From a virus: DNA of 25,112 bases. The notes under the pieces are model-generated. The model saw nothing but the letters and a program-made list of their open reading frames with translations, was not told where the DNA came from and did not search any database. Location: IMG/VR virus record IMGVR_UViG_3300032893_001950. The stretch is one strand, 5' to 3'. The translations under genes were made by a program, and so were the position numbers. Positions 3,059 through 24,084 of the stretch are shown piece by piece; positions within the stretch are counted from its first letter, which is position 1, and each line of letters opens with the position of its first letter.

Positions 3059-3130
3059 CGTCGCGACGCGGCTTAAGCGGCCCGCCGCGTGCAACAGGAG
3101 ACACATCCGGCGCGTAGCTCAGGAGATGCA

Positions 3131-3778
3131 ATGGCAACCGGCGCAGATCTTATCGAGGCAGCACGGCAGGCCATCGACAAGACCCGTGAGGAAATCCGGG
3201 CCGAACTGGACAGGTACAAGCTCTCCATTCCGGCGCATGTCGAGGCCCAGCTTGAGAAGTGCCGATTTCTGTTCGGCCCCGAGCTGGAGCATGGGCTGAA
3301 GAGGGCCAAACAGAAGGCCGAGATGCATGTGCTCTCAGAGCGAACCAAGGCTCCCAAACCCATGAAGGAGGAGGCCAAGGCACGCCTCCGGGCTCTGAAC
3401 GCCCAGCGAAAGCAGGAGCGGGAGGAGCGCAAGGCCAGGTTGGCAGTAACAGTGGTGGACAAGAAGAGTGAGCTGCCCGCAGAGCCCCCGAAGAAGGAGG
3501 TAAAGAAGCCAGTTGTGTCCAAGCCACCGAAGCCGGTTTCAAGCAAGCCCAAGGTGAATGGTCGGGTGCCACTCTGGCAGGACCCAGAGGCCCAGGTAGA
3601 GCGGGTGAAGAAGTATCCCCATGCTATCCCTGGCACCTTCAAGCAGGGGAAGAACCACGGTCTGACGGTCGTGGACATCCAGTGCCAGGTGCCCGACTGC
3701 AAGGCCACCCGCACCATTCCCGTGGCGGAGCTGTTCCACATCAACAAGTGTGAGCCCCACAAGAAGGTGAAACTCTAG
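3131..3778 (+). CDS. basic Lys/Pro-rich protein with coiled-coil N-terminus and C-terminal Zn ribbon (IQCQVPDCKATRTIPVAELFHINKCEPHK); histone-H1-like tail KKEVKKPVVSKPPKPVSSKPK
   Basis: In-frame ATG at 3131 with AGGAG 7 nt upstream; the track's GTG at 3089 is less likely. Low-complexity K/P/E-rich segment followed by C-x4-C-x16-C-x2-H. Confidence 0.7.
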   Translation: MATGADLIEAARQAIDKTREEIRAELDRYKLSIPAHVEAQLEKCRFLFGPELEHGLKRAKQKAEMHVLSERTKAPKPMKEEAKARLRALNAQRKQEREERKARLAVTVVDKKSELPAEPPKKEVKKPVVSKPPKPVSSKPKVNGRVPLWQDPEAQVERVKKYPHAIPGTFKQGKNHGLTVVDIQCQVPDCKATRTIPVAELFHINKCEPHKKVKL

Positions 3779-4488: not shown

Positions 4489-4530
4489 GGGTAGGCCAGT
4501 CGGTTGGCGTGTTTGTGGGGAGTGGGGCGG

Positions 4531-5754
4531 ATGTTTATCGACAATAGCTTGGCGAACCAATTGGTTCGCCAAGCCCAGACGCGCAAAGATGCAGGTTCGA
4601 TTCAGCGGCTCATGGAACAGATAGTCGAGGTCGAGAATTATCGACAGCACGACATCAAGAACCAGGGCTACATCGGTCGCGTGTTCTTCCAAGAACAGGA
4701 GCGGCTGCCAGCTAGTGTGGACATGACTGACATTGTGGCAGTATTCTGGGAACAGGTGATGAAGGATCTGCCCAGGGCCGCCATGGAGGGTGAGGTCGTA
4801 TCCGTCCGCAAGATCAACGAAATCCAACATGATGGCATTGAATATGTCGCGTCAAAGACTAAGGATGGTGAAGTTTACGTAGACCGCAAGACGAAGATGA
4901 ACCCAGTTTATTGGTTGAGGCGCCAAGGTTATATGGCAGTCCGGAATTTCATCAACGACCACTACCGGGACAACTGGAATCAGTCTTGCGACGACTGTGG
5001 GCACGTTGGGCCTTCGGCACAATCCACGGAGGTTGTAACTCCCTGCCACCAGTGTAACTCCAAGGACTCGGTCAAGGTCACGCTCCGGAAGCGGACGGTC
5101 CAGCGAGGCTCTAACAATTCACACCGTAAGTGTTCAGCCTGTGGCACCCTGCGCCCACGCCAGTTCACGCGTTCTTGTCGGAAGTGCGGGTCGTCAAACG
5201 TCAGGGTGGACTACAGATTCGATGGCGAACTTAAGGAGGACATCTTTAGCTTACCTGATGGCCTCCATAACATGCGGCCGGACGACATTCTGGTCAAGGG
5301 TGAGGTGAATCGGGAGCTTGAGCAACTGCTTAAGGATATCGAGGATTCGTTCCCCAAGAACACCAAGGATAACATTGGTGACACTCAGGTCAGACGTATC
5401 TTTCGCATCCTCATCTATCCCGAAGCGTCCATGGAGATGTGTGGTCAATGCAAATTCAAAGCCGGCATGGTGTGTGCAGAGGGTTGCCGGCGCGACTACT
5501 GCAACCACGATCGCAAGGTAAACCCCTCGAAGTCATGCGGAGCAGATAGCTTCCAACTCGACAAGTGCATCAACTACAGCAAGAAGATTGGCGAGTACAT
5601 GGGGTTTACCGGCGCACTGGCCAATCGTCGGGTACAGAAAATCCGCCTCTACGTCGAGCAGTTCCTCCGCAACAACCTGGACAGGTACGGCATCTCCCAG
5701 CAGCTCCTAAGGAAACTGGAAACCGCGAAACGAAGGAAGAAAGGGTTGGCGTAA
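4531..5754 (+). CDS. hypothetical protein with four CxxC-type Cys clusters (putative multiple Zn ribbons). The N- and C-terminal regions weakly resemble sigma-factor regions 2 and 4.
   Basis: ATG 4531 with GGGGAG SD; the track's TTG at 4504 is less likely. Motifs CDDCGH...CHQC, CSACG...CRKCG and CGQC...CAEGC...CNHD. C-terminus ALANRRVQKIRLYVEQFLR is HTH-like. Confidence 0.6.
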   Translation: MFIDNSLANQLVRQAQTRKDAGSIQRLMEQIVEVENYRQHDIKNQGYIGRVFFQEQERLPASVDMTDIVAVFWEQVMKDLPRAAMEGEVVSVRKINEIQHDGIEYVASKTKDGEVYVDRKTKMNPVYWLRRQGYMAVRNFINDHYRDNWNQSCDDCGHVGPSAQSTEVVTPCHQCNSKDSVKVTLRKRTVQRGSNNSHRKCSACGTLRPRQFTRSCRKCGSSNVRVDYRFDGELKEDIFSLPDGLHNMRPDDILVKGEVNRELEQLLKDIEDSFPKNTKDNIGDTQVRRIFRILIYPEASMEMCGQCKFKAGMVCAEGCRRDYCNHDRKVNPSKSCGADSFQLDKCINYSKKIGEYMGFTGALANRRVQKIRLYVEQFLRNNLDRYGISQQLLRKLETAKRRKKGLA

Positions 5755-6485: not shown

Positions 6486-6770
6486 ATGAGCGGCAAGCCA
6501 TACCCAGAGGGTGTAGAGCGGGTGGCCGTGCTCCTACGCAAGGAGCACCAGCTCCGCGTCGAGCTGGGTGCCCTCAAGCCACATGTCGAGCGCTACCACA
6601 AAGCTCAGGAGGAGTACGGCAAGATTTCCACAGAGGTCGCCAAGCTCCTGGAGAGCATGGATCTGGAAGGACAGGGCAATTACGGGTTCGGTGGCCGGAT
6701 GGGGTGGTTTCTCCGCACCATGCGTGAGCTTATTCTAAAGGACCTGGCCAAGCCACAGGAGGGTCCATGA
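6486..6770 (+). CDS. hypothetical protein
   Basis: ATG with AGGGAG SD. 94-aa helical-looking ORF. Stop overlaps the next ATG (ATGA). Confidence 0.6.
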   Translation: MSGKPYPEGVERVAVLLRKEHQLRVELGALKPHVERYHKAQEEYGKISTEVAKLLESMDLEGQGNYGFGGRMGWFLRTMRELILKDLAKPQEGP

Positions 6771-17500: not shown

Positions 17501-17794
17501 AAGACCAACGGTGTGAATGGGCACAAGAACGGCCACTCCGAGCAGCTTCAGCTGCCCATCGAGATGCCGCACCCTGCGGTAATCGAGTCAGTGATGACAA
17601 AGGCCCCGGAAGTGGTGTCCTTCTCGTCCACCGCGCACTTCCAGGCGTTCTCTACGGATCTGCTGGCGAAAGCGGCCTCGCCTTGGGCCAGTAGCAAGAA
17701 GAAGCTGGAGCAGTGCCCGAATTGTTCCAGCAAGAACATTGATCATGGGGCTGGCTGCGCCACCTGTGCAGATTGTGGTGGTAGTTTCTGCTGA
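14510..17794 (+). CDS. nrdJ: class II (adenosylcobalamin-dependent) ribonucleoside-triphosphate/diphosphate reductase NrdJ, interrupted by an intein
   Basis: SNGEPGLLF motif and the active-site NPC|GE motif split by the intein (ATNP-C...N-CGEQ). C-terminal Zn ribbon CPNCSS...CATCADCGG typical of monomeric class II RNR. Mature length about 729 aa after excision. Confidence 0.9.
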   Translation: MAEMQLTPNAMNVLKKQKYLHPKDDGGTESVQEMWSRVSVAVGAAEDIFVGESNSANRYTFEKEAYYYQSEGLFVANSPTMVNAGKKRGQLAACFVLPIEDDTHSIMQASHNQVMVQTSGGGTGFSGARLRCRNSLVGTTGKVSGGAMSVLRMLNANSQYFITQGAARNGANMWVQPCWHFDVLEFIDIKRYELRNLHHKLEAGIHLTDDERKFLEGGTDIKEFNISVAATDEFMELATNGDYTTENWPLKDPKDGRVVEWTNAASMLDRIIFRAWSNGEPGLLFIDAANRQNPTPQIGTLEATNPCLTGDTFIATDKGLLQLHDIVEHKLKVKVYGSDGQLQDIAKYVDSGVQKIFQIKTRSGAELYATSYHRWPTKDGEKQTHELQVGDKLSVFVNAKLEQNLNTEEYDAGLLLGWLIGDGYLSHMESKSRSAGIIVGKDDFDYIPLIQNLIEKATGQKASEHKRDEFSTVQLLSQRIWKWAVNDMGVIPHKAGDKEVPQCVMEGSQSMQRGFLKGLFSADGHVVHGNDSRVQVRLTSKSKALMDGVRILLTQVGVVSKVMDRSRPPREDLFKHVNKDGDTVWYGSDGVAYEVHVSGRSYLEQFARAVGFTQQTKTIKLTAAIESLTGRQMVDDSDPIISIEPAGVEHTYCLNVTPTHSMVANGINTLNCGEQWLLGDESCTLGHAVLSRFCREFLSDKKMPTTLAEVLPFIDLDKLRDCFKFITRFLDNVVQVNYYPVESIAKMHRDGNRKIGVGVLGWGDMLAKLHIRYGSELSLILAAHIGKLWQEATDEASIGLAKERGSFGNYKGSAVELQFPEGMRNACRRTVAPTGSTGIIVNASTGIEPIFGLVLTRNQAGSIMHEVHSFFQEVLDREVSKSYHEQIFNYFSVMKTLAGISKDKTFAGIVPEWIEQVFVQASDVSPTEHVAMQAAWQQHTDNSISKTINMPSSASENDVRTAYVQAWKSGCKGITVYRDGSRNNQVLTVGDKTNGVKKTNGVNGHKNGHSEQLQLPIEMPHPAVIESVMTKAPEVVSFSSTAHFQAFSTDLLAKAASPWASSKKKLEQCPNCSSKNIDHGAGCATCADCGGSFC
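15428..16522 (+). mobile_element. intein (365 aa) with LAGLIDADG homing-endonuclease domain inside nrdJ
   Basis: Starts CLTGDTFIA (block A) directly after ATNP. LAGLIDADG motifs LLGWLIGDGYL and KGLFSADGHV. Ends HSMVANGINTLN followed by the C-extein Cys of CGEQ. In frame; the insertion is 1095 nt. Confidence 0.8.
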
Positions 17795-17808
17795 CCGGGG
17801 AGGGGGAC

Positions 17809-18078
17809 ATGGCTGAGAAATTGCCCTATCACCATATCCTTGGGTTTGTTGAGGACAAGGATATGGAAGTACAGATGCGAGAGGCCCTGAAATCTAAGCC
17901 TCACGTTCGTGTCATCAATTTCTATTCACGTATCCTGGAAGACCTGCTCCTGGCGGCGAAGTACCGCACCGTCAGCCGCCCTACTGTGATTGTGCTCCAC
18001 AGTGACAAGGTGGTGGCCCGCCTTTGTAGAATACCGGATGCGGCCATGCTGGCACATCTTGAGCCCGCAATAGGTTAA
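17809..18078 (+). CDS. hypothetical protein
   Basis: Very strong SD (GGGAGGGGG) upstream of ATG. 89-aa ORF. Confidence 0.6.
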   Translation: MAEKLPYHHILGFVEDKDMEVQMREALKSKPHVRVINFYSRILEDLLLAAKYRTVSRPTVIVLHSDKVVARLCRIPDAAMLAHLEPAIG

Positions 18079-18081
18079 TCC

Positions 18082-18108
18082 GCACGGGTCCGTTGGTTAG
18101 ACCCGTGC
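18082..18108 (+). promoter_or_regulatory. stable hairpin GCACGGGTC-loop-GACCCGTGC (9 bp) upstream of the purA-like gene; no U-tract
   Basis: Perfect 9-bp inverted repeat with a 9-nt loop in the 61-nt intergenic gap. Confidence 0.3.
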
Positions 18109-18139
18109 ACAGGACCCACAATCGCACGGAGCATAACAC

Positions 18140-19546
18140 ATGGCCAAGGGCAAGAGCGTCACGGTAGTGGTGGGGATGCAGTATGGATCAGAGGCCAAGG
18201 GCAAACTGATCTCAGTGATCGCTCACGAGTACCAGATGCTCGTCCGCACGGGCTCAGTAAACGCGGCCCACACGGTCTACTTCGAAGGGAAGGCCTACCC
18301 CTGGCACCAGCTCCCGGCCGGCACCCTTCACATGATGAAGCGGAACCCGGAGTCCATCATCGTCCTGGGTGCTGGGTCACAGCTTGACCTGCACTACCTG
18401 GAGCGGGAGGTCAAGTGGCTCCAGGAGCATGGAGTCCTCTTCTTTGAGGGAACGAAGGTTCCCCGCCTGCTCATCGACAACATGGCCACGGTGATCGACG
18501 AGTTCGACACCTTCGCAGAGAACGGCTACGCCAATGTCTGCGGGCCGCAGTGGTACAAGCCCACTACCTGCCAGTACCACAACGGCGACAAGGGACCGGA
18601 CGGGGCGACCAAGGCGAAGGGCGGCTGTACCGGGTGCTCGCTCTACCCCGCCGACTCCATGCACCGGACCCTGGGTTCCACCACCCACGGGTCGGGCATG
18701 AACATGATCCGCAAGCTGGCTCGTCGCGGTAACATCGTGATGGGCCGCGAGAACCTGACCTTCGAGCAGTTCGTGGAGGGCATGGCCATCGACCAGATGT
18801 TGAAGGACGACATTGGGCCTGCCATCAAGGGAGTGATGGCCCAGGCCTACGAAATCTATGGCAAGCGTATCGCTCTCAAGGCGCCGCCGGTCAAGCTCGT
18901 GTCAGACATCAAGGACACGGAGATCGCGGGCGTGAAGCTCGGTGCCTTCCTGGCCGACACCGTGGACGCCATCAACACCTACATCGATGCCGGCAAGAAG
19001 GTAATGCTGGAGGGTACGCAGGGCGCGATGCTCTCTGTCCACCACGGCACCTGGCCCAAGACCACCAGCCGCGACACCAACGCCTCCAACTGGTGCATGG
19101 AGGCCGGCGTCGCCCCGACTGCTGTGGAGAAGGTCATCGGCGTGGCCCGTACCTTCCCGATCCGGGTGGCCGGCGATTCTGGGCCCACCAGCGGGAAGGA
19201 AATCACCTGGAAGGACGTCTCCGAGTTCGCGGGCGTGCCCTACACCCACAACGATGATCCCACCCAGATCAAGGGCCTCATCGAGATCACCACCGCCACC
19301 AAGCGGGTGCGCCGGGTCTTCGAGTTCGGGGACGAGGACTTCCTCAAGGCGATGCAACTGAATCGCCCCGACGAGCTGATGCTCACCTTCGTGGACTACC
19401 TGGGCATCGAGAATGCTGGCAAGCGTGACTGGAACGAACTCACGCCCAAGGCCCGTGAGTGGGTCATCAAGAAGGAAGCCTCCCTTGGTGTCCACTTCAG
19501 GTACCTGTCCACCGGTCCTGGCGACCAAGAACTCATCGTCCGCTAA
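18140..19546 (+). CDS. adenylosuccinate synthetase family enzyme (PurA/PurZ-like), divergent
   Basis: Alignable end to end with PurA. P-loop [14 protein letters not shown] matches VVVLGTQWGDEGKGK. Also NAAH (His41 region), GSTTHGSG (GTTGRGIGP), [19 protein letters not shown] ([20 protein letters not shown]), [14 protein letters not shown] (TTGRRRRTGWLD) and LSTGPGDQE (ISTGPDRTE). Deviations: Asp13 replaced by Ser, TKLD replaced by TFVD, and a Cys4 insertion (C-x9-C-x17-C-x2-C). Confidence 0.85.
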
Positions 19547-19806
19547 TGGGAATCGAAATCATGAACAACTTCGGCTGGGCAGTCGAGCGACTCAAGGATG
19601 GGTGTGCCGTCGCCCGTAAGGGCTGGAACGGCAAGGGCATGTGGATCGCCCTACAGCGCCCAGATGCCAACTCCAAGATGACCCTGCCATATACCTACAT
19701 GAGCACCGTGACCGGAGACCTGGTCCCGTGGCTAGCCTCTCAGACCGACATCCTCGCTGAGGACTGGGAGCTGGTTAAGGGACCCACACCCTACTCAGGT
19801 AAGTAG
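19546..19806 (+). CDS. DUF2829-like small protein (possible Tad2-like nucleotide sponge); alternative start ATG 19561
   Basis: TAATG overlap with the purA-like stop. [34 protein letters not shown]...[19 protein letters not shown] matches the recalled DUF2829 signature (GWNGKG, pW..sq.D.LA.DWE). Confidence 0.6.
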
Positions 19807-19816
19807 GAGGCGATGT

Positions 19817-19844
19817 CAGGGTAGCGTGCTATCCTGTCTTTGCT
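19817..19844 (+). terminator. candidate terminator (CAGGGTAGC-gtg-GCTATCCTG then TCTTTGCT)
   Basis: 8/9-bp stem, 3-nt loop, U-rich tail, 11 nt after the stop at 19806. Confidence 0.35.
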
Positions 19845-19974
19845 GGACCAGCAGTTGCAGCACGAACACCGTAGCACCCTCACGCCAAGCCAATACCGCA
19901 CAAACACGACAAGCACTACTGTAAACGACAGCGCGTAAGGCAAACCTCACAACCACAACAAGGACAACTGAACC

Positions 19975-20901
19975 ATGGGATTCCTAAGCGAAACCGGCAA
20001 CTCCATCTACCTCGCACTGAAGGAAACGATCCAGACCGGGCGCCCGCTGGCGAAGAAGCCTCAGTCGGTCTGGACCCACCAGATCCCGGAAGTCTTCACC
20101 ATGGACGACCGTCTGCCCGGGACGAAGCTAATCCTTCGCCCCTACGGGACGGCGCCCTGCATCGCCACCGCTCGCAACAAGAGCGCTTGCTGGCACTGCA
20201 ACAACACCGACCCTCTATGGCACCAGCTCGCCCCCGATCAGCAGGTCGCCACGGGCGGCAAGTACAAGGGTCAGCGTGTGGACTTCAGCAAGAAGGTGGT
20301 CCACCTCCTGCCCATGTACAACCACACCGAGGGCAAGACCCAGATCCTGAAGAGCGGCAACCAGGTCTTCAAGGAGATGGAGAAGTGGGACGAGGCCGGG
20401 AACGACATCCGTGGCTGCGACTGGGACCTCTGGAAGAAGGGGACCTTCCGTAACACGGAGAACTTCTCGACCCGCAAGGACTCGACCCAGACCCTCCCCC
20501 TGGACCTCGCCGCCTACGAGGAAGAGGCCAAGGCCATCCTCCGGCAGGCCCTGGATGACCTCAAGCCGCTCAGCGCCGAAGAGTACGCCAAGCATGCTCA
20601 CGGCGTGAGCAAGGAAGAGGCCATCGAGGCGGCGAAGAAGAAGGCCGCTTCCGCGACGACCGCTGCTCCGGCGATGGGCCTCCCCGCCGCCCCGTCCTCG
20701 TCCGGTGCGCTCCCGCCCGCTCCTGCCATGGGCTCGATGCCGGCGCTCCCGCCTCCGCCGCCTCCCCCGGTGGCAGCTGTGGACAACCGGCTCATGCAGC
20801 CGCTGAAGTTCTCGGACGACAAGCACTACGTCCTGCTCGCCACCAACCAGTGGAAGCTGGTTGCGGAGGCGAAGCGCGAAGGGTACGTAGGCCTGCCGTA
20901 G
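19975..20901 (+). CDS. putative ssDNA-binding protein, T4 gp32-like (tentative), with C-terminal Ala/Pro-rich linker (PPPPPPP) and small C-terminal domain
   Basis: C-x9-C-x2-C (CIATARNKSACWHC) has the same spacing as the gp32 Zn site (C77-x9-C87-x2-C90). KLILRPYG resembles gp32 AVIRFLPS. EGKTQILKSGNQVFKEMEKW resembles gp32 EGKVFKYRFGKKIWDKI. CA-rich leader with AAGGA SD. Confidence 0.55.
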   Translation: MGFLSETGNSIYLALKETIQTGRPLAKKPQSVWTHQIPEVFTMDDRLPGTKLILRPYGTAPCIATARNKSACWHCNNTDPLWHQLAPDQQVATGGKYKGQRVDFSKKVVHLLPMYNHTEGKTQILKSGNQVFKEMEKWDEAGNDIRGCDWDLWKKGTFRNTENFSTRKDSTQTLPLDLAAYEEEAKAILRQALDDLKPLSAEEYAKHAHGVSKEEAIEAAKKKAASATTAAPAMGLPAAPSSSGALPPAPAMGSMPALPPPPPPPVAAVDNRLMQPLKFSDDKHYVLLATNQWKLVAEAKREGYVGLP

Positions 20902-20924
20902 TTCAGCCGTTATAACCATCCACA

Positions 20925-20960
20925 GCGCCGGGAGTGTTCTGCTCCCGGCGCATTTACTTG
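20925..20960 (+). terminator. Rho-independent terminator (GCGCCGGGAG-tgttctg-CTCCCGGCGC then ATTTACTTGG)
   Basis: Perfect 10-bp GC stem, 7-nt loop, T-rich tail, 24 nt after the stop at 20901. Confidence 0.55.
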
Positions 20961-20975
20961 GGGAGTACCCAAATC

Positions 20976-22187
20976 ATGAAGACTTGGTCGATTGACATCA
21001 CCTTCAAGGGCACCGACGAGGCTGTCCATGATGCGGTGAAGAAGCTCGCCAACGAGTTCGCAACCAAGACCCTGTCCACCCACGTTCTCATCAGTGCCGG
21101 CGTCGGCAGCCAGCAGGAATGGGAAGGTAAGGTCCCGGCCCCAGGGCCGAAGGTCATACCTGAGCCGATCATCGAGAATGTGGACAACACGCCAGTGGTC
21201 GAGGCCGAGGTGGTTCCACCGAGCGAGGTGAAGAAGCTCAGCAGCTCCACCGCCCAGGCCCAATTCGAGGTGGTGGAGGTCAAGGCCGAGCCAGTCGCGC
21301 CACCGGTCCAGGCGGCACCGCCACCGCCGCCACCGCCGCCACCGCCCGTCCCGGCGTCTCCGCCGGTTCCGGACGCGCCCGCCGCTGCCGCCCCGCCACC
21401 GCCGCCACCCGCGCCCGTGCAGAACACGGCGCCGGCTCCTGTCGAAGTGTCGGCCACCCCGTCTGGTGGCATCGAGGCAGACAAGGCCATCGTGATGTCG
21501 GAAGGCAAGTACAAGGGCAAGACCCTCGGATGGGTCGCGGAGAATGACTCAAAGTACTTCACCTTCATGAAGTCCTACACCAAGGACGAGGCCATCAAGG
21601 CGGCCACCGATCGCATCAAGCTCGCCATGAAGGCTGGCGCCATCACCACTTCGGCCCCGACCGAGGCCCCGCCTCCGCCGCCTCCCCCAGTGGCTGGCGC
21701 GGCTGTGCCTCCACCCCCGCCCGCTCCCGTCACTCCTGAAGTGGCCGCACCCCCGCCTCCTCCACCCCCGCCTCCTGCCCCGGCGGCTGCAGCGGCTCCC
21801 CCTCCGCCGCCTCCTGCTCCTGCTGCGGTGGCCGCGCCTCCTCCCCCTCCGCCGCCCGCCCCAGCCCCTGCGGCCGAGCCCACCCCACCTGCCACGCCGG
21901 CTCCTGTCGCCGCTGCACCGGTCGATTCCAAGGCTCAAGTCGTCGCGGTTCAGGACCTGTCCAACTACATCAATTCGCAGCCCGAGTTCAAGGGTGCGAA
22001 CATGGTGAAGAACCTCATCCCGCTGCTTCGCGGTGTGATGAACGGGACCCTCGACTACACGGACAAGGACATCCCGACGCTTCAGAAGATTCGAGCGGTC
22101 GTGGACGCGTGGCTCACCACTGCCCGTAATAGGGCTCCGTCGGCCCCTCCGCCGCCCCCTCCGATGCCCACCGCGCCGACTGCCTAA
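20976..22187 (+). CDS. proline-rich multidomain protein with six polyproline (PPPPPPP-type) / Ala-Pro linker tracts
   Basis: ATG 20976 with GGGGAG SD; the track start 20934 lies inside the terminator hairpin. Three apparently folded segments separated by APPPPPPPPPPPVPASPPVP, APPPPPPAP, EAPPPPPPPVAGAAVPPPPPAP, AAPPPPPPPPPAPAAAAAPPPPPPAPAAVAAPPPPPPPAP and a C-terminal SAPPPPPPMP tract. Confidence 0.7.
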   Translation: MKTWSIDITFKGTDEAVHDAVKKLANEFATKTLSTHVLISAGVGSQQEWEGKVPAPGPKVIPEPIIENVDNTPVVEAEVVPPSEVKKLSSSTAQAQFEVVEVKAEPVAPPVQAAPPPPPPPPPPVPASPPVPDAPAAAAPPPPPPAPVQNTAPAPVEVSATPSGGIEADKAIVMSEGKYKGKTLGWVAENDSKYFTFMKSYTKDEAIKAATDRIKLAMKAGAITTSAPTEAPPPPPPPVAGAAVPPPPPAPVTPEVAAPPPPPPPPPAPAAAAAPPPPPPAPAAVAAPPPPPPPAPAPAAEPTPPATPAPVAAAPVDSKAQVVAVQDLSNYINSQPEFKGANMVKNLIPLLRGVMNGTLDYTDKDIPTLQKIRAVVDAWLTTARNRAPSAPPPPPPMPTAPTA

Positions 22188-22196
22188 GGACCAAAC

Positions 22197-23396
22197 ATGG
22201 CCCGCCCAGACAAGGACAAGGAAAAGAAGCTAAAGCCCCTCATCCTGGAGGGGAAACTCCCGACCGATGCCAAGGGCATCAAGGCATTCCTCAACAAGAC
22301 CTTGGGGACTGCCGACTCACCGCTCAACATCGCAGGGACAGGCGCAGACCTGGAAAGCCCCGAAGTCATGAAGGGGGTCGTCGTCCACCCCACTGGCATC
22401 CTCGGACTCGATCGCTACCTAGGGATTGGAGGATTCCTGGGTGGACGCATCCTGGATGTCTTCGGGTGGGAGGGCACGGGTAAGACCCTCACTGCCCTCA
22501 TGATCGGGGCCTTCTTCCAGTCAGTGGGGAAGCGGGTCGCCTTCGTGGACGCTGAGGGCACCCTCTCGCCCCAGATGGCAAGGTCGGTGGGCGTCAACCT
22601 GGATGAACTCATCATCATCCAGTCAACGCCAGAGAAGGTGATGATGGGCGAAGACTACCTGGAGGCAGTCAAGTTACTGCTCCAGCTCGGCGTCGAGTTC
22701 ATCATCGTGGACTCGGTGCCTGCGCTCGTGCCCGGCATGACCATGCAGAAGAAGATTGGTGAGGGGCAGAAGTCGGTACAGGCCCAGATGATGTCCGAGG
22801 GCCTGCAGCAGATGATACCGCTCCTGACCAGCAAGAAGACTTCGTGCGTCTACTTCATCAACCAGATGCGCGGCGTCCCAATGGCCATGTTCGGTCCATC
22901 CGAGAAAGAAACCGGCGGTAACGCCCTGAAGTTCTACGCCTCGGTCCGTCTGGGTGTGAGGAAGAAGGAAGACATTATCGAGAAGATCCAGATGCCAGAT
23001 GGGCGGATCGTCGAGACCCAGCTAGGCGTCCGCAACGTCTACACCTTGGAGAAGAACAAGACGGCTATCATACCAATTGATAGCCTGGAGCTGGACGTTT
23101 ATTTCCAGCCGAAGTGGGGAGACCGGTGGGTCCTTCACAACGGCACGGAAATCATGCCCGGCGTGGACGTAATGAAGGACATGGTGGAGGTCGGTGTCAA
23201 CAACGGCGTCATCAAACAGGAGTCGTCTTGGTTCACCTTCGGGTCGCACAAGTGCAATGGCAAGGCGGCACTTGCCAACGCCCTGAAGGCCGACGCCGTG
23301 GCGCAGGTGATCCTCCGAGAACAGGTGCTCTCCGCAGGCTCGCTGAAGCCGACCCCACCCCCGGAGGAAGAGGCCAAGAAGGGCAAGAAAGCCTAG
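22197..23396 (+). CDS. recA: RecA recombinase (bacterial RecA type, extended N-terminus)
   Basis: [15 protein letters not shown] (Walker A), [55 protein letters not shown] (near-identical to E. coli RecA [33 protein letters not shown]). AAGGA SD. Confidence 0.9.
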   Translation: [399 protein letters not shown]

Positions 23397-23405
23397 TAAG
23401 ACGGT

Positions 23406-23879
23406 ATGTCCTCTAAGTCTGTATCTGTCGATGTCCTTGAGTGGCCTAATGTCAAGCAGGTCAACCTCCAGCCAGGCGATCATCTGGAGTTCGGCATGCC
23501 ACAGACAGGATCTCTGTCGATGGCTTTCAGGACGGACCCGGGAACGAGGGTTGAGCTAGCGCTCGTAGATTCAAGCAAAACTCGTGGCACCAACCGAGAT
23601 GCCGTTGCGACCGCCGAGTTGCAGCGGCTTCTCGGTGTTTGGTGCTGCTGTAGATCTGCGCATCCATTCCCGACGTACGAGCTACCGTGCCCAATCCACA
23701 ATACCCGTGAGCTAGCGAACTCGATTCGGTCTGCTATTGGTGATATGAATGAGCTAAGAGGCAAACTAGACAATGCCCAAAAGAAAATCGAAGACCCGCT
23801 CGCGGACTGGGATACAGCTAAACTCATCTCTGAGCTACGCGACCGCGACGACGCCTCTGATATCAAACAGGCGTTATGA
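23406..23879 (+). CDS. hypothetical protein
   Basis: ATG 9 nt after the recA stop. 157-aa ORF with C-terminal coiled-coil-like segment. Lower-GC island. Confidence 0.5.
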   Translation: MSSKSVSVDVLEWPNVKQVNLQPGDHLEFGMPQTGSLSMAFRTDPGTRVELALVDSSKTRGTNRDAVATAELQRLLGVWCCCRSAHPFPTYELPCPIHNTRELANSIRSAIGDMNELRGKLDNAQKKIEDPLADWDTAKLISELRDRDDASDIKQAL

Positions 23880-23886
23880 GGGTAAG

Positions 23887-24084
23887 TTGGAGGGGATCCA
23901 AATCATCCACGAGCAGTTTTTCTTAAAACATTTGATGCCTGGTGATTGTATAGAGGCGTGTGGGTTTAAAGCGATTGCGAAACAGACGTCATCAATAGAT
24001 ACCGTCACACGGCTATTTGTTGGCAACAAAATGGGCGCATACTTTTGGGACTCAACCACTGGTGAGTTGCTCGATGAACTCTGA
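23887..24084 (+). CDS. possible small protein (TTG start)
   Basis: Residual part of track ORF 23773..24084 after the upstream gene ends. TTG with GAGGG SD. Weak. Confidence 0.25.
   Translation: MEGIQIIHEQFFLKHLMPGDCIEACGFKAIAKQTSSIDTVTRLFVGNKMGAYFWDSTTGELLDEL

What the first reader, a model, noticed from the sequence alone, without database searches (positions are those of the whole stretch)
18140..19806. PurA-like enzyme translationally coupled to a DUF2829/Tad2-like small protein
The DUF2829-like ORF starts with ATG overlapping the purA-like stop (TAATG), so the two are co-expressed. Tad2 from phage SPO1, a nucleotide-signal sponge that blocks Thoeris, is recalled here as a DUF2829 member; that assignment is from memory and unverified. 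Pairing a nucleotide-metabolising enzyme with a putative nucleotide-binding sponge suggests a counter-defence or nucleotide-pool-manipulation module rather than plain purine biosynthesis.
Basis: inference. Interest (0 to 1): 0.5.

Follow-up and report, generated by a model that had tools for sequence, protein, structure and literature searches.

The report
PurZ-like enzyme beside Tad2 sponge gene
A large phage carries a PurZ-type enzyme gene (probably for making 2-aminoadenine "Z" DNA) followed closely by a small Tad2-type anti-Thoeris sponge gene, but the two look like independent counter-defence genes that happen to be neighbours, not a dedicated two-part module.

Summary
Both ORFs are real. 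ORF 19546/19561-19806 is a clear Tad2/DUF2829 protein by Pfam score, sequence matches to solved Tad2 structures and predicted fold. Its gcADPR-pocket residues are conserved, and it lacks the insertion that binds cyclic dinucleotides.

ORF 18140-19546 is not a PurA. Ser17 replaces the catalytic Asp13, and it carries the other validated PurZ residues. All 120 closest homologues and 138 of the top 150 cluster representatives also have Ser. About 14 kb downstream, the same contig encodes a DmtZ-like protein that keeps all five mutagenesis-tested DmtZ residues, followed by a Dut-like protein. This is the toolkit of PurZ0-type Z-genome phages. The enzyme belongs to a separate long-form clade with a conserved Cys/His insert.

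The pairing is not conserved. Close relatives keep the order RNR, small ORF, PurZ-like, then a conserved 308-aa gene. The slot after the enzyme instead holds a Mom-like gene, a dCMP deaminase or unknown genes. None of about 90 other PurZ-like loci has a Tad2 gene nearby.

The TAATG overlap exists, but ATG 19561 is the better-supported start. Overlapping or abutting junctions are common in this window.

Verdict: two known kinds of counter-defence gene, probably co-transcribed by chance of position. Interest is modest.

The parts
18140..19546 (+). Long-form Ser-type adenylosuccinate-synthetase homologue (PurZ-like), 468 aa
   Evidence: It matches PF00709 at 1.2e-46 and PHROG 1211, '2-aminooxy adenylosuccinate synthetase', at 1.8e-60. 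PurZ signature residues are present. The AF2 model has pLDDT 84 and its fold matches PurA and PurZ structures. The long-form clade has 100% NJ bootstrap support.
18185..18205 (+). P-loop GSEAKGK; Ser17 (codon 18188-18190) replaces the catalytic Asp13 of E. coli PurA
   Evidence: Alignment A1. All 120 best homologues have GSE[AG]KG or a near variant. Of the top 150 cluster representatives, 138 have Ser and 2 have Gly. The literature reports Ser in 100% of 147 phage PurZ and Asp in 99% of PurA (PMC12884076).
18539..18637 (+). Family-specific insert with invariant C134, C144, H147, C163 and C166 (putative zinc-binding knuckle)
   Evidence: These residues are invariant in alignment A2 of 31 long-form proteins. 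The insert is absent from phiVC8, S-2L and Ghobes PurZ and from E. coli PurA. Model confidence here is only moderate, pLDDT 63-84. Zinc binding is inferred.
19544..19548 (+). TAATG: stop of the enzyme gene overlapping the first in-frame ATG of the Tad2-like ORF
   Evidence: Read directly from the sequence. The same junction type occurs at 13394.
19546..19806 (+). Tad2-like (DUF2829) ORF: 86 aa from ATG 19546, or more probably 81 aa from ATG 19561
   Evidence: It matches PF11195 at 5e-26. Sequence matches to solved structures include SptTad2, HgmTad2/AcrIIA7, ModTad2 and SPO1 Tad2. The AF2 model has pLDDT 87, and the top 24 Foldseek PDB hits are all Tad2 structures.
19624..19632 (+). Codons for W27-N28-G29, the first half of the gcADPR pocket
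   Evidence: These align with HgmTad2 W21/N22/G23 and SPO1 Tad2 W25/N26. They are invariant in alignment A3.
19729..19749 (+). Codons for W62-L63-A64-S65-Q66-T67-D68, the second half of the gcADPR pocket
   Evidence: These align with HgmTad2 W87, L88, S90, T92 and D93, and with SPO1 Tad2 W73 and D79. W62, S65, Q66 and D68 are invariant in A3.
19817..19836 (+). Weak terminator-like hairpin 11 nt after the Tad2 stop codon
   Evidence: Consensus scan only: 8 pairs and a poor T tail.
17809..18078 (+). Conserved 89-aa ORF between the RNR gene and the PurZ-like gene (backbone; thioredoxin-like pattern without Cys)
   Evidence: Homologues occupy the same position in L087, L088 and L090, where they abut or overlap the purZ-like start. 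It has no Pfam or PHROG hit.
14510..17794 (+). Class II-type ribonucleotide reductase with a LAGLIDADG intein (upstream backbone gene)
   Evidence: Pfam matches PF02867, PF00317 and PF14528. It lies upstream of the purZ-like gene in all four relatives whose gene calls were examined.
19975..20901 (+). Conserved 308-aa gene that closes the variable slot after the PurZ-like gene
   Evidence: BLASTP finds homologues a short way downstream of the purZ-like gene in L087-L090, L095, L007, L009, L010, L011 and L014. It has no Pfam or PHROG hit.

Best explanation
These are two separate counter-defence genes that are transcribed together. They lie in the replication and nucleotide-metabolism block of a phage of at least 103 kb.

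(1) ORF 18140-19546 is a long-form member of the Ser-type (PurZ-like) branch of adenylosuccinate synthetases. By inference it condenses dGMP with aspartate, using ATP or dATP, to give N6-succino-2-amino-2'-deoxyadenylate. Host PurB and kinases would then turn this into dZTP. A DmtZ-like NDT enzyme and a Dut-like enzyme on the same contig would remove dATP and dAMP, so that 2-aminoadenine replaces adenine in phage DNA. Z-DNA is reported to partially prevent cleavage by host restriction endonucleases.

(2) ORF 19561(19546)-19806 is a minimal Tad2 sponge. By inference it forms a tetramer and sequesters Thoeris TIR-made signals: 1''-3' and 1''-2' gcADPR, and possibly His-ADPR. It lacks the insertion that some Tad2 proteins use to bind cyclic dinucleotides.

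The Tad2 gene sits in a variable accessory slot just after the enzyme gene. Its tight spacing reflects compact phage gene packing, not a shared mechanism.
For: Enzyme:
- Ser17 takes the place of Asp13.
- phiVC8 PurZ residues F12, S14, P233, W252, T262, F295 and Y298 correspond to Y15, S17, P340, W357, T384, F417 and Y420. The residue list comes from bioRxiv 10.1101/2025.10.22.683976 and PMC8342488.
- PHROG 1211, the PurZ family, is the only PHROG match.
- All 120 best homologues, and 138 of the top 150 cluster representatives, are Ser-type.
- The best phage hits are annotated PurZ or PurZ0.
- On the same contig, L091 18278-18940 is NDT-like. It keeps all five Ghobes DmtZ residues tested by mutagenesis (Y6, D12, P57, N77, E103 correspond to Y27, D33, P68, N90, E116). 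L091 18949-19611 next to it is Dut-like.
- PurZ0 genomes always carry dutZ and usually dmtZ (PMC12884076).

Tad2:
- PF11195 scores 91.5 bits.
- Sequence matches to solved Tad2 structures.
- The AF2 model with Foldseek returns only Tad2 structures among hits with E <= 0.001.
- Pocket residues W27, N28, G29, W62, L63, S65, T67 and D68 are conserved.

Independence of the two genes:
- The slot after the enzyme holds other genes in relatives.
- No other PurZ-like locus examined has a Tad2 ORF.
- Tad2 homologues at 69-82% identity sit in unrelated contexts, whereas backbone genes are at most about 51% identical to their nearest relatives.
- Overlapping junctions are common.
Against: - No biochemical or DNA-composition data exist for this clade.
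- The protein scores below the curated NCBIfam PurZ cut-off (155.6 against 300). It scores slightly higher against an archaeal-type PurA model, also below cut-off.
- In the NJ tree the long-form clade falls outside the PurZ + PurZ0 clade, and the deep nodes are unsupported.
- It keeps Arg389 at the position of E. coli R303, the ribose 2'-OH contact, where phiVC8 PurZ has Lys.
- No DatZ, MazZ or DpoZ was found in the roughly 35 kb of the contig that could be read.
- Ser-type enzymes also occur in cellular genomes, next to a Ham1-like ITPase. Ser alone therefore does not prove Z-DNA synthesis.
- The Dut-like protein is no closer to Ghobes DutZ than to E. coli Dut (19.7 against 19.3 bits).
- The Tad2 HMM used on the loci was built from close short-form homologues and could miss very divergent Tad2 proteins.
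Confidence: 0.68

Rival explanations
1. One reading: the enzyme and the sponge form one functional module. For example, the Tad2-like protein might bind a substrate, product or by-product of the enzyme (dSMP, dZ nucleotides), or regulate the enzyme. The translational coupling would then set their stoichiometry.
For: The two genes are at most 14 nt apart and almost certainly co-transcribed. Tad2 proteins bind adenine-containing nucleotides.
Against: - The adjacency was found in no other PurZ-like locus out of about 90 examined.
- Close relatives keep the enzyme and fill the slot with Mom-like, dCMP deaminase or unknown genes.
- The nearest Tad2 homologues lie in contigs with no PF00709 gene within 6 kb.
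- The gcADPR pocket is fully conserved, which argues for the ordinary ligand.
- The likelier start codon does not overlap the stop codon.
Confidence: 0.06
2. The enzyme is a genuine adenylosuccinate synthetase, an auxiliary metabolic gene that boosts AMP and dATP supply for a large phage.
For: PF00709 and the archaeal-type PurA model PRK04293 give its best NCBIfam score, 190 bits. The best PDB sequence and fold match is Pyrococcus PurA. The gene lies next to the RNR gene.
Against: - The catalytic Asp13 is replaced by Ser. Asp is 99% conserved in PurA.
- The GTP-recognition motif TKLD is replaced by TFVDY, with the Phe and Tyr that stack on adenine in PurZ.
- All PurA equivalog scores are far below their cut-offs.
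- No Asp-type protein appears among the 150 best cluster representatives.
- The DmtZ-like enzyme would be expected to destroy dAMP.
Confidence: 0.06
3. The long-form Ser-type enzyme catalyses a related but different reaction. It might act on GMP or another 2-substituted purine nucleotide, give only partial substitution, or serve a salvage or house-cleaning role like the cellular Ser-type paralogues.
For: - It forms a separate clade with two large inserts and a conserved Cys/His motif.
- Arg389 is retained at the ribose 2'-OH contact position.
- Cellular Ser-type homologues are coupled to a Ham1-like ITPase.
- Many Ser-type homologues are fused to nucleotide-kinase-like domains.
- No DpoZ, DatZ or MazZ was seen in 35 kb.
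Against: All five functionally validated PurZ determinants are present. The gene is embedded in deoxynucleotide metabolism, after the RNR gene. A DmtZ-like protein with intact catalytic and dAMP-specificity residues, plus a Dut-like protein, lie on the same contig.
Confidence: 0.15
4. The small protein is an anti-CRISPR (AcrIIA7-like) and not an anti-Thoeris sponge.
For: It matches AcrIIA7 (PDB 8kbi, 9kzr) at 4e-14 to 5e-13. Some phage records annotate homologues as 'anti-CRISPR protein'.
Against: AcrIIA7/HgmTad2 was re-tested and showed no Cas9 inhibition, but it did bind gcADPR and cGG (bioRxiv 10.1101/2023.11.15.567273).
Confidence: 0.03

Closest known systems
Tad2 (Thoeris anti-defence 2; DUF2829/PF11195): SPO1 gp34.65, ModTad2, SptTad2, HgmTad2/AcrIIA7
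   Same: It has the same Pfam family and the same fold: helix alpha1 plus an antiparallel sheet, with TM-score 0.72-0.84 to solved Tad2 chains. The gcADPR-pocket residues are the same (W-N-G ... W-L-x-S-x-T-D).
   Different: This is a minimal form of 81-86 aa. The loop between beta2 and the following strands is even shorter than in SPO1 Tad2. The cyclic-dinucleotide pocket of HgmTad2 and SptTad2 is therefore predicted to be absent. It belongs to a very abundant metagenomic subfamily of 71-80 aa proteins, with 7,192 homologues. Ligand binding has not been tested.
PurZ0 of Gordonia phage Ghobes / Arthrobacter phage Wayne type (PDB 7VF6) with DutZ and DmtZ
   Same: It shares the Ser-type P-loop GSEAKG, the PIRVAG...SGP...E..W segment and the F-x-D motif in the NTP site. 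The genome also encodes an NDT-like protein with the DmtZ residues and a Dut-like protein.
   Different: Identity is only about 32%. This protein is 468 aa against about 360 aa, because of two inserts, one with a conserved Cys/His motif. It forms a separate clade. The gene follows RNR instead of DpoZ. The Dut-like and NDT-like genes lie 14 kb away and are not adjacent to it. The host phage is at least 103 kb, not about 45 kb.
[quoted passage not shown]
   Same: It has the same fold (TM-score about 0.82 normalised to 6FKO/6TNH). [quoted passage not shown]
   Different: The P-loop is GSEAKG, not GSTGKG. Identity is 25-33%. No DatZ or MazZ homologue was found in the readable 35 kb. The NCBIfam PurZ score is below its cut-off.
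Canonical and archaeal PurA (E. coli 1ADE; Pyrococcus horikoshii 5K7X)
   Same: The overall fold is shared, and P. horikoshii PurA gives the highest raw sequence and fold score. Shared residues include H41, Q224, T129 and the R303 equivalent.
   Different: Asp13 is changed to Ser, W11 to Tyr, the GTP motif K331-L-D333 to F-V-D, and TRVG to IRVAG with an SGP insertion.

Membership tests
Tad2 / DUF2829 (PF11195) | Match to the family HMM above the curated cut-off | tested here: met
   91.5 bits against a cut-off of 25, E = 5e-26, covering profile positions 2-73 of 73.
Tad2 / DUF2829 (PF11195) | Tad2 fold: N-terminal helix plus antiparallel beta sheet | tested here: met
   AF2 model with pLDDT 87 and pTM 0.77. 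The 24 Foldseek PDB hits with E <= 0.001 are all Tad2 chains, at probability 1.00. The next hit has E = 0.13.
Tad2 / DUF2829 (PF11195) | gcADPR-pocket residues (SPO1 W25, N26, W73, D79; HgmTad2 W21, N22, G23, W87, L88, S90, T92, D93) | tested here: met
   W27, N28, G29, W62, L63, S65, T67 and D68 align with these residues (residue lists). Most are invariant in the subfamily alignment.
Tad2 / DUF2829 (PF11195) | Insertion domain that binds cyclic dinucleotides (HgmTad2/SptTad2 subtype only) | tested here: not met
   The region between the conserved halves is about 15-25 residues, against residues 32-72 in HgmTad2. No CDN binding is predicted.
Tad2 / DUF2829 (PF11195) | Homotetramer that sequesters gcADPR and rescues phage from Thoeris | not testable with these tools
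   This needs SEC/ITC/SPR measurements and infection assays.
PurZ / PurZ0 (succino-amino-deoxyadenylate synthase) | Adenylosuccinate-synthetase fold | tested here: met
   PF00709 at 1.2e-46. The AF2 model matches PurA, PurZ and PurZ0 structures at E of 1e-16 to 1e-28.
PurZ / PurZ0 (succino-amino-deoxyadenylate synthase) | Ser in place of the catalytic Asp13 of PurA | tested here: met
   Ser17 in GSEAKGK.
PurZ / PurZ0 (succino-amino-deoxyadenylate synthase) | Other PurZ-discriminating residues (phiVC8 F12, T262, F295, Y298, P233, W252, and others) | tested here: met
   Including Ser14, 7 of the 12 residues listed match, and these include all five with a demonstrated role. G256, Y244 and S273 do not match. 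P144 and I34 are ambiguous (I34 aligns with V35).
PurZ / PurZ0 (succino-amino-deoxyadenylate synthase) | Score above the curated NCBIfam PurZ model (NF038379) | tested here: not met
   155.6 bits against a cut-off of 300.
PurZ / PurZ0 (succino-amino-deoxyadenylate synthase) | Placement inside the PurZ or PurZ0 clade | tested here: inconclusive
   In the NJ tree the long-form clade has 100% bootstrap support and lies outside the PurZ + PurZ0 group. The deep nodes have only 9-46% support, and a single Asp-type outgroup was used.
PurZ / PurZ0 (succino-amino-deoxyadenylate synthase) | Companion enzymes that remove dATP or supply dGMP (DatZ + MazZ, or DutZ + DmtZ) | tested here: met
   A DmtZ-like protein retaining all five DmtZ residues tested by mutagenesis in Ghobes, and an adjacent Dut-like protein, lie on the same contig about 14 kb downstream. 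No DatZ or MazZ was found. Assigning the Dut-like protein to DutZ is weak.
PurZ / PurZ0 (succino-amino-deoxyadenylate synthase) | Z-selective DNA polymerase (DpoZ) in the genome | not testable with these tools
   Only about 35 kb of the 103-kb contig could be read. No PolA appears in it.
PurZ / PurZ0 (succino-amino-deoxyadenylate synthase) | 2-aminoadenine actually present in the virion DNA | not testable with these tools
   Sequencing reads Z as A. This needs LC-MS or restriction assays.
Canonical PurA (adenylosuccinate synthetase) | Asp13 catalytic base and GTP-specific (S/T)KLD motif | tested here: not met
   Ser17 is present instead of Asp. TFVDY replaces TKLDV. All PurA equivalog models score far below their cut-offs.
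   No Tad2-like ORF was found in 80 IMG/VR PurZ-like loci, 5 loci of close relatives, 2 cellular loci, or the phiVC8, S-2L and Ghobes records (Pfam columns). No PF00709 gene lies near three close Tad2 homologues.

The most novel reading that the evidence does not exclude
The long-form Ser-type synthetase may define a third, uncharacterised PurZ lineage. It is about 400-530 aa, carries an invariant Cys/His insert, and always follows the RNR gene and a small thioredoxin-like ORF. On this reading it gives 2-aminoadenine DNA to large phages of 50-190 kb that lack the classical DatZ/MazZ/DpoZ cluster. The position just after it would be a hot spot where such phages swap anti-defence or DNA-modification genes: Tad2 here, Mom-like and dCMP deaminase in relatives.
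Probability: 0.4. Interest if true: 0.5.

Novelty: new member of a known kind. Interest (0 to 1): 0.3.

Why it matters
The gene pair itself is ordinary: a Tad2 sponge gene dropped into a variable slot. The useful result is the reassignment of the 'PurA-like' gene.

- A distinct long-form PurZ-like clade, with DmtZ-like and Dut-like companions, suggests that Z-DNA (2-aminoadenine) genomes may extend to large environmental phages. Their gene organisation would differ from that of the roughly 40-kb model Z phages.
- Adenylosuccinate-synthetase genes in viral metagenomes should be checked at the Asp13/Ser position before being called purine-biosynthesis AMGs.
- The locus also shows one phage layering two counter-defences: base replacement against restriction, and signal sequestration against Thoeris.
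- The enzyme's conserved Cys/His insert is a concrete, testable structural novelty.

Tried and rejected
- A megablast of window 14000-24000 (the region around the finding) against 50,697 phage records found nothing, so no annotated close relative exists there.
- The last word-indexed protein search, with the NDT-like protein, returned only the protein itself. Co-occurrence of the DmtZ-like gene with long-form PurZ in other contigs could therefore not be tested.
- The rest of the 103-kb contig, beyond about 34.8 kb, could not be fetched. The presence of DpoZ, DatZ or MazZ there is unknown.
- Foldseek on the enzyme model confirms the fold but cannot separate PurA from PurZ. Pyrococcus PurA ranks first.
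- The NJ tree does not resolve the deep branching among Ser-type clades.
- The Dut-like protein cannot be assigned to DutZ rather than an ordinary dUTPase by score.
- The anti-CRISPR reading (AcrIIA7) was considered and rejected on published re-testing.
- The genuine-PurA AMG reading was considered and rejected on active-site residues.
- PADLOC was not searched. There was no reason to expect a defence system here.
Full report
**What is there**

On the plus strand, ORF 18140-19546 (468 aa) is followed by an in-frame ORF that ends at 19806.
- The first ORF matches Adenylsucc_synt PF00709 at 1.2e-46.
- The second matches PF11195 'Thoeris anti-defense 2-like' at 5e-26, 91.5 bits against a cut-off of 25.

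The window is the replication and nucleotide-metabolism block of a large phage. It encodes:
- an ATP-dependent DNA ligase;
- a ribonucleotide reductase with a LAGLIDADG intein;
- the two ORFs in question;
- RecA/UvsX and a PDDEXK nuclease.

The same sequence lies on a 103,236-bp metagenomic contig. That contig continues with a DEAD helicase, nucleotide-kinase-like proteins and a primase-helicase. No phage in the reference collection is close at the DNA level.

**The junction**

TAA at 19544-19546 overlaps ATG at 19546-19548. ATG 19561 is the more probable start:
- It has a GGGA 9 nt upstream, the same spacing as the GGAG/AGGA sites of neighbouring genes.
- It leaves three residues before the conserved FGWA motif, as in most homologues.
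- It is the start chosen on the long ENA contig.

The genes are therefore 14 nt apart or overlap by 1 nt. Co-transcription is likely. There is no promoter-like site upstream, and a weak hairpin follows at 19817-19836.

The spacing carries no special information. Five or six of 24 junctions in the window overlap or abut, including another TAATG at 13394. In two of the three unrelated phage contigs examined, the Tad2 homologue overlaps whatever gene lies upstream by 4 nt.

**The small protein**

Sequence search against solved structures returns only Tad2 proteins: SptTad2, HgmTad2/AcrIIA7, ModTad2 and SPO1 gp34.65. An AlphaFold2 model (pLDDT 87) gives 24 Foldseek hits with E <= 0.001. All are Tad2 chains, with TM-scores normalised to the target of about 0.6-0.84. 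The next hit has E = 0.13.

The residues that hold gcADPR are all present:
- SPO1 Tad2 uses W25, N26, W73 and D79.
- HgmTad2 uses W21, N22, G23, W87, L88, S90, T92 and D93.
- The window protein has W27, N28, G29, W62, L63, S65, T67 and D68.
- Most of these are invariant across the subfamily.

The insertion that forms the cyclic-dinucleotide pocket of HgmTad2 and SptTad2 is missing. I predict a gcADPR (and possibly His-ADPR) sponge without CDN binding.

This short form is very common: 7,192 homologues at E <= 1e-5, many at 70-82% identity. Related ORFs occur in 354 of 50,697 phage records. The older anti-CRISPR label for AcrIIA7 was not reproduced on re-testing.

**The enzyme**

It is not a PurA.
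- The P-loop reads GSEAKGK, with Ser17 where E. coli PurA has the catalytic Asp13.
- Published work finds Asp in 99% of PurA sequences and Ser in all 147 phage PurZ sequences. An S14D mutation in phiVC8 PurZ abolishes substrate selectivity.
- The residues that stack the adenine of ATP (F295, Y298) are matched by F417 and Y420.
- The top differential residues P233 and W252 are matched by P340 and W357.
- The only PHROG hit is the PurZ family, and the best phage hits are PurZ/PurZ0 genes at 25-33% identity.
- Every one of the 120 best homologues is Ser-type. So are 138 of the 150 best representatives from an exhaustive HMMER scan, with 2 Gly-type and 10 fragments or unmatched.

Caveats:
- The curated NCBIfam PurZ model scores only 155.6 bits against a cut-off of 300. 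An archaeal-type PurA model scores 190 bits, also far below its cut-off.
- Pyrococcus PurA is the best PDB match by sequence and by fold.
- Arg389 is kept at the position of E. coli R303.

**A distinct long form**

Some 65 homologues of roughly 400-530 aa share two inserts. One insert carries invariant C134, C144, H147, C163 and C166, which looks like a zinc site. Model confidence in the inserts is low to moderate.

In a rough NJ tree this clade has 100% bootstrap support. It lies outside the group that contains phiVC8, S-2L and Ghobes PurZ/PurZ0. The deeper nodes are unresolved.

Ser-type enzymes are a large radiation:
- 228 cluster representatives score at E <= 1e-30, and all classifiable sequences among the 150 listed are Ser- or Gly-type.
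- Some are fused to nucleotide-kinase-like domains.
- Some are cellular, translationally coupled to a Ham1-like ITPase.

Ser alone is therefore not proof of Z-DNA synthesis.

**Independent support for a Z pathway**

About 14 kb downstream on the same contig lie two adjacent 220-aa genes. One is NDT-like (PF15891 and PF05014) and the other is Dut-like (PF00692).

The NDT-like protein aligns with Ghobes DmtZ. It retains all five residues probed by mutagenesis: Y6, D12, P57, N77 and E103 correspond to Y27, D33, P68, N90 and E116. N77 is notable because Asp is the most frequent residue at that position in the NDT superfamily.

DmtZ and DutZ are the companions of PurZ0. Every PurZ0 genome has dutZ, and 85 of 98 have dmtZ. 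An independent enrichment study also links the dUTPase and NDT domains to dZ phages.

The Dut-like protein resembles Dut-like genes that sit next to PurZ0-like genes in IMG/VR contigs (63 and 54 bits). It is no closer to Ghobes DutZ than to E. coli Dut. No DatZ, MazZ or PolA was found in the readable 35 kb.

**Is the pairing meaningful?**

The four close relatives whose gene calls were examined share the backbone RNR, small ORFs (in three of them a homologue of the window's ~90-aa ORF directly precedes the enzyme gene), PurZ-like, [slot], conserved 308-aa-type gene, RecA, PDDEXK, DEAD helicase. The slot holds:
- Tad2 in the window;
- a 462-aa Mom-like protein plus two small ORFs in L087;
- a dCMP deaminase plus three small ORFs in L088;
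- unknown 140-aa and 98-aa ORFs in L090;
- an unrelated 84-88-aa ORF in L095 and L009;
- nothing in L011.

A Tad2 HMM run without filters found no hit above 10 bits in the other PurZ-like loci. These were 80 IMG/VR loci, the relatives above, two cellular loci, the phiVC8 and S-2L genomes, and the Ghobes region.

Conversely, three Tad2 homologues at 69-82% identity lie in unrelated neighbourhoods with no PF00709 gene within 6 kb. The backbone genes of this phage have no relative above about 51% identity. The Tad2 gene therefore has its own, more mobile history.

**Conclusion**

The exact overlap is probably not the start that is used.

This is not plain purine biosynthesis, and both genes plausibly counter host defence. 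Nothing supports a joint enzyme-sponge mechanism.

The best reading is a PurZ-like Z-DNA pathway gene of a new long-form clade, followed by an accessory minimal Tad2 sponge in a variable slot. Both belong to known kinds. The long-form PurZ clade with its Cys/His insert, and the possibility of Z genomes in phages above 100 kb, are the parts worth following up.

Noticed in passing
window 9724-12285 (+): An 853-aa protein carries eukaryote-type Major Vault Protein domains (MVP_shoulder 5.6e-25, Vault_3 1.2e-10) and a long C-terminal coiled-coil-like tail. It sits inside a phage replication block and has no PHROG match.
   Followed up: no
window 17809-18078 (+); L087 9715-10026, L088 9728-10000, L090 9751-10011: A small ORF of about 90 aa is conserved in three close relatives (L087, L088, L090). 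It lies between the RNR gene and the PurZ-like gene and abuts or overlaps the purZ-like start in all three. It has a thioredoxin-like pattern (..VINFYS....PTVVVL..) but no Cys pair, and no Pfam or PHROG hit. It is a better candidate than Tad2 for a true partner of the enzyme or of RNR.
   Followed up: partly
window 18539-18637 (enzyme residues 134-166): The motif C-x9-C-x2-H ... C-x2-C is invariant across 31 long-form PurZ-like proteins and absent from characterised PurZ, PurZ0 and PurA. It is a putative zinc site of unknown role.
   Followed up: partly
L091 18278-18940 and 18949-19611 (same contig, about 14 kb downstream of the enzyme gene, outside the window): Adjacent NDT-like and Dut-like genes. 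The NDT-like protein keeps all five mutagenesis-tested residues of Ghobes DmtZ. The Dut-like protein has an N-terminal extension of about 120 aa and an internal insert.
   Followed up: yes
L087 11313-12701: In a close relative, the gene directly after the PurZ-like gene encodes a 462-aa protein with a C-terminal Mom domain (5e-17) and a weak Vsr-like endonuclease region. Mom modifies adenine in DNA, which is curious in a putative Z-genome phage.
   Followed up: no
window 19975-20901 (+) and 20934-22187 (+): The 308-aa protein is conserved downstream of the PurZ-like gene in 10 related loci but has no family match. It and the next ORF carry long poly-Pro/Ala tracts, with runs of 7-11 Pro, in a stretch of up to 69% GC.
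   Followed up: partly
L093 8001-9625 (GCA_964596525.1, 1.34-Mb contig): A cellular 336-aa Ser-type PurA-like gene overlaps the start of a Ham1-like ITPase gene and lies near Endonuclease V. Ser-type enzymes therefore also exist outside phages, possibly in purine house-cleaning.
   Followed up: no
P0247, P0249, P0253, P0266, P0272, P0333, P0364: Many Ser-type PurA-like proteins of 500-750 aa are fused to N-terminal nucleotide or nucleoside kinase-like domains (AAA_18, AAA_33, ADK, dNK).
   Followed up: no
window 14510-17794; L087 14948-17398; L090 13436-15835: There is a LAGLIDADG intein in the RNR gene here. In two relatives, inteins occur in both RNR and RecA.
   Followed up: no
window 13394: A second TAATG stop/start overlap occurs between two unrelated ORFs. 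Overlaps or zero-gap junctions also occur at 2622/2625, 3778, 4215/4216 and 6767-6770.
   Followed up: yes
window 4504-5754 (+) and 941-1342, 107-433, 3089-3778 (+): Several ORFs are rich in CxxC pairs (zinc-ribbon-like) and have no family assignment.
   Followed up: no
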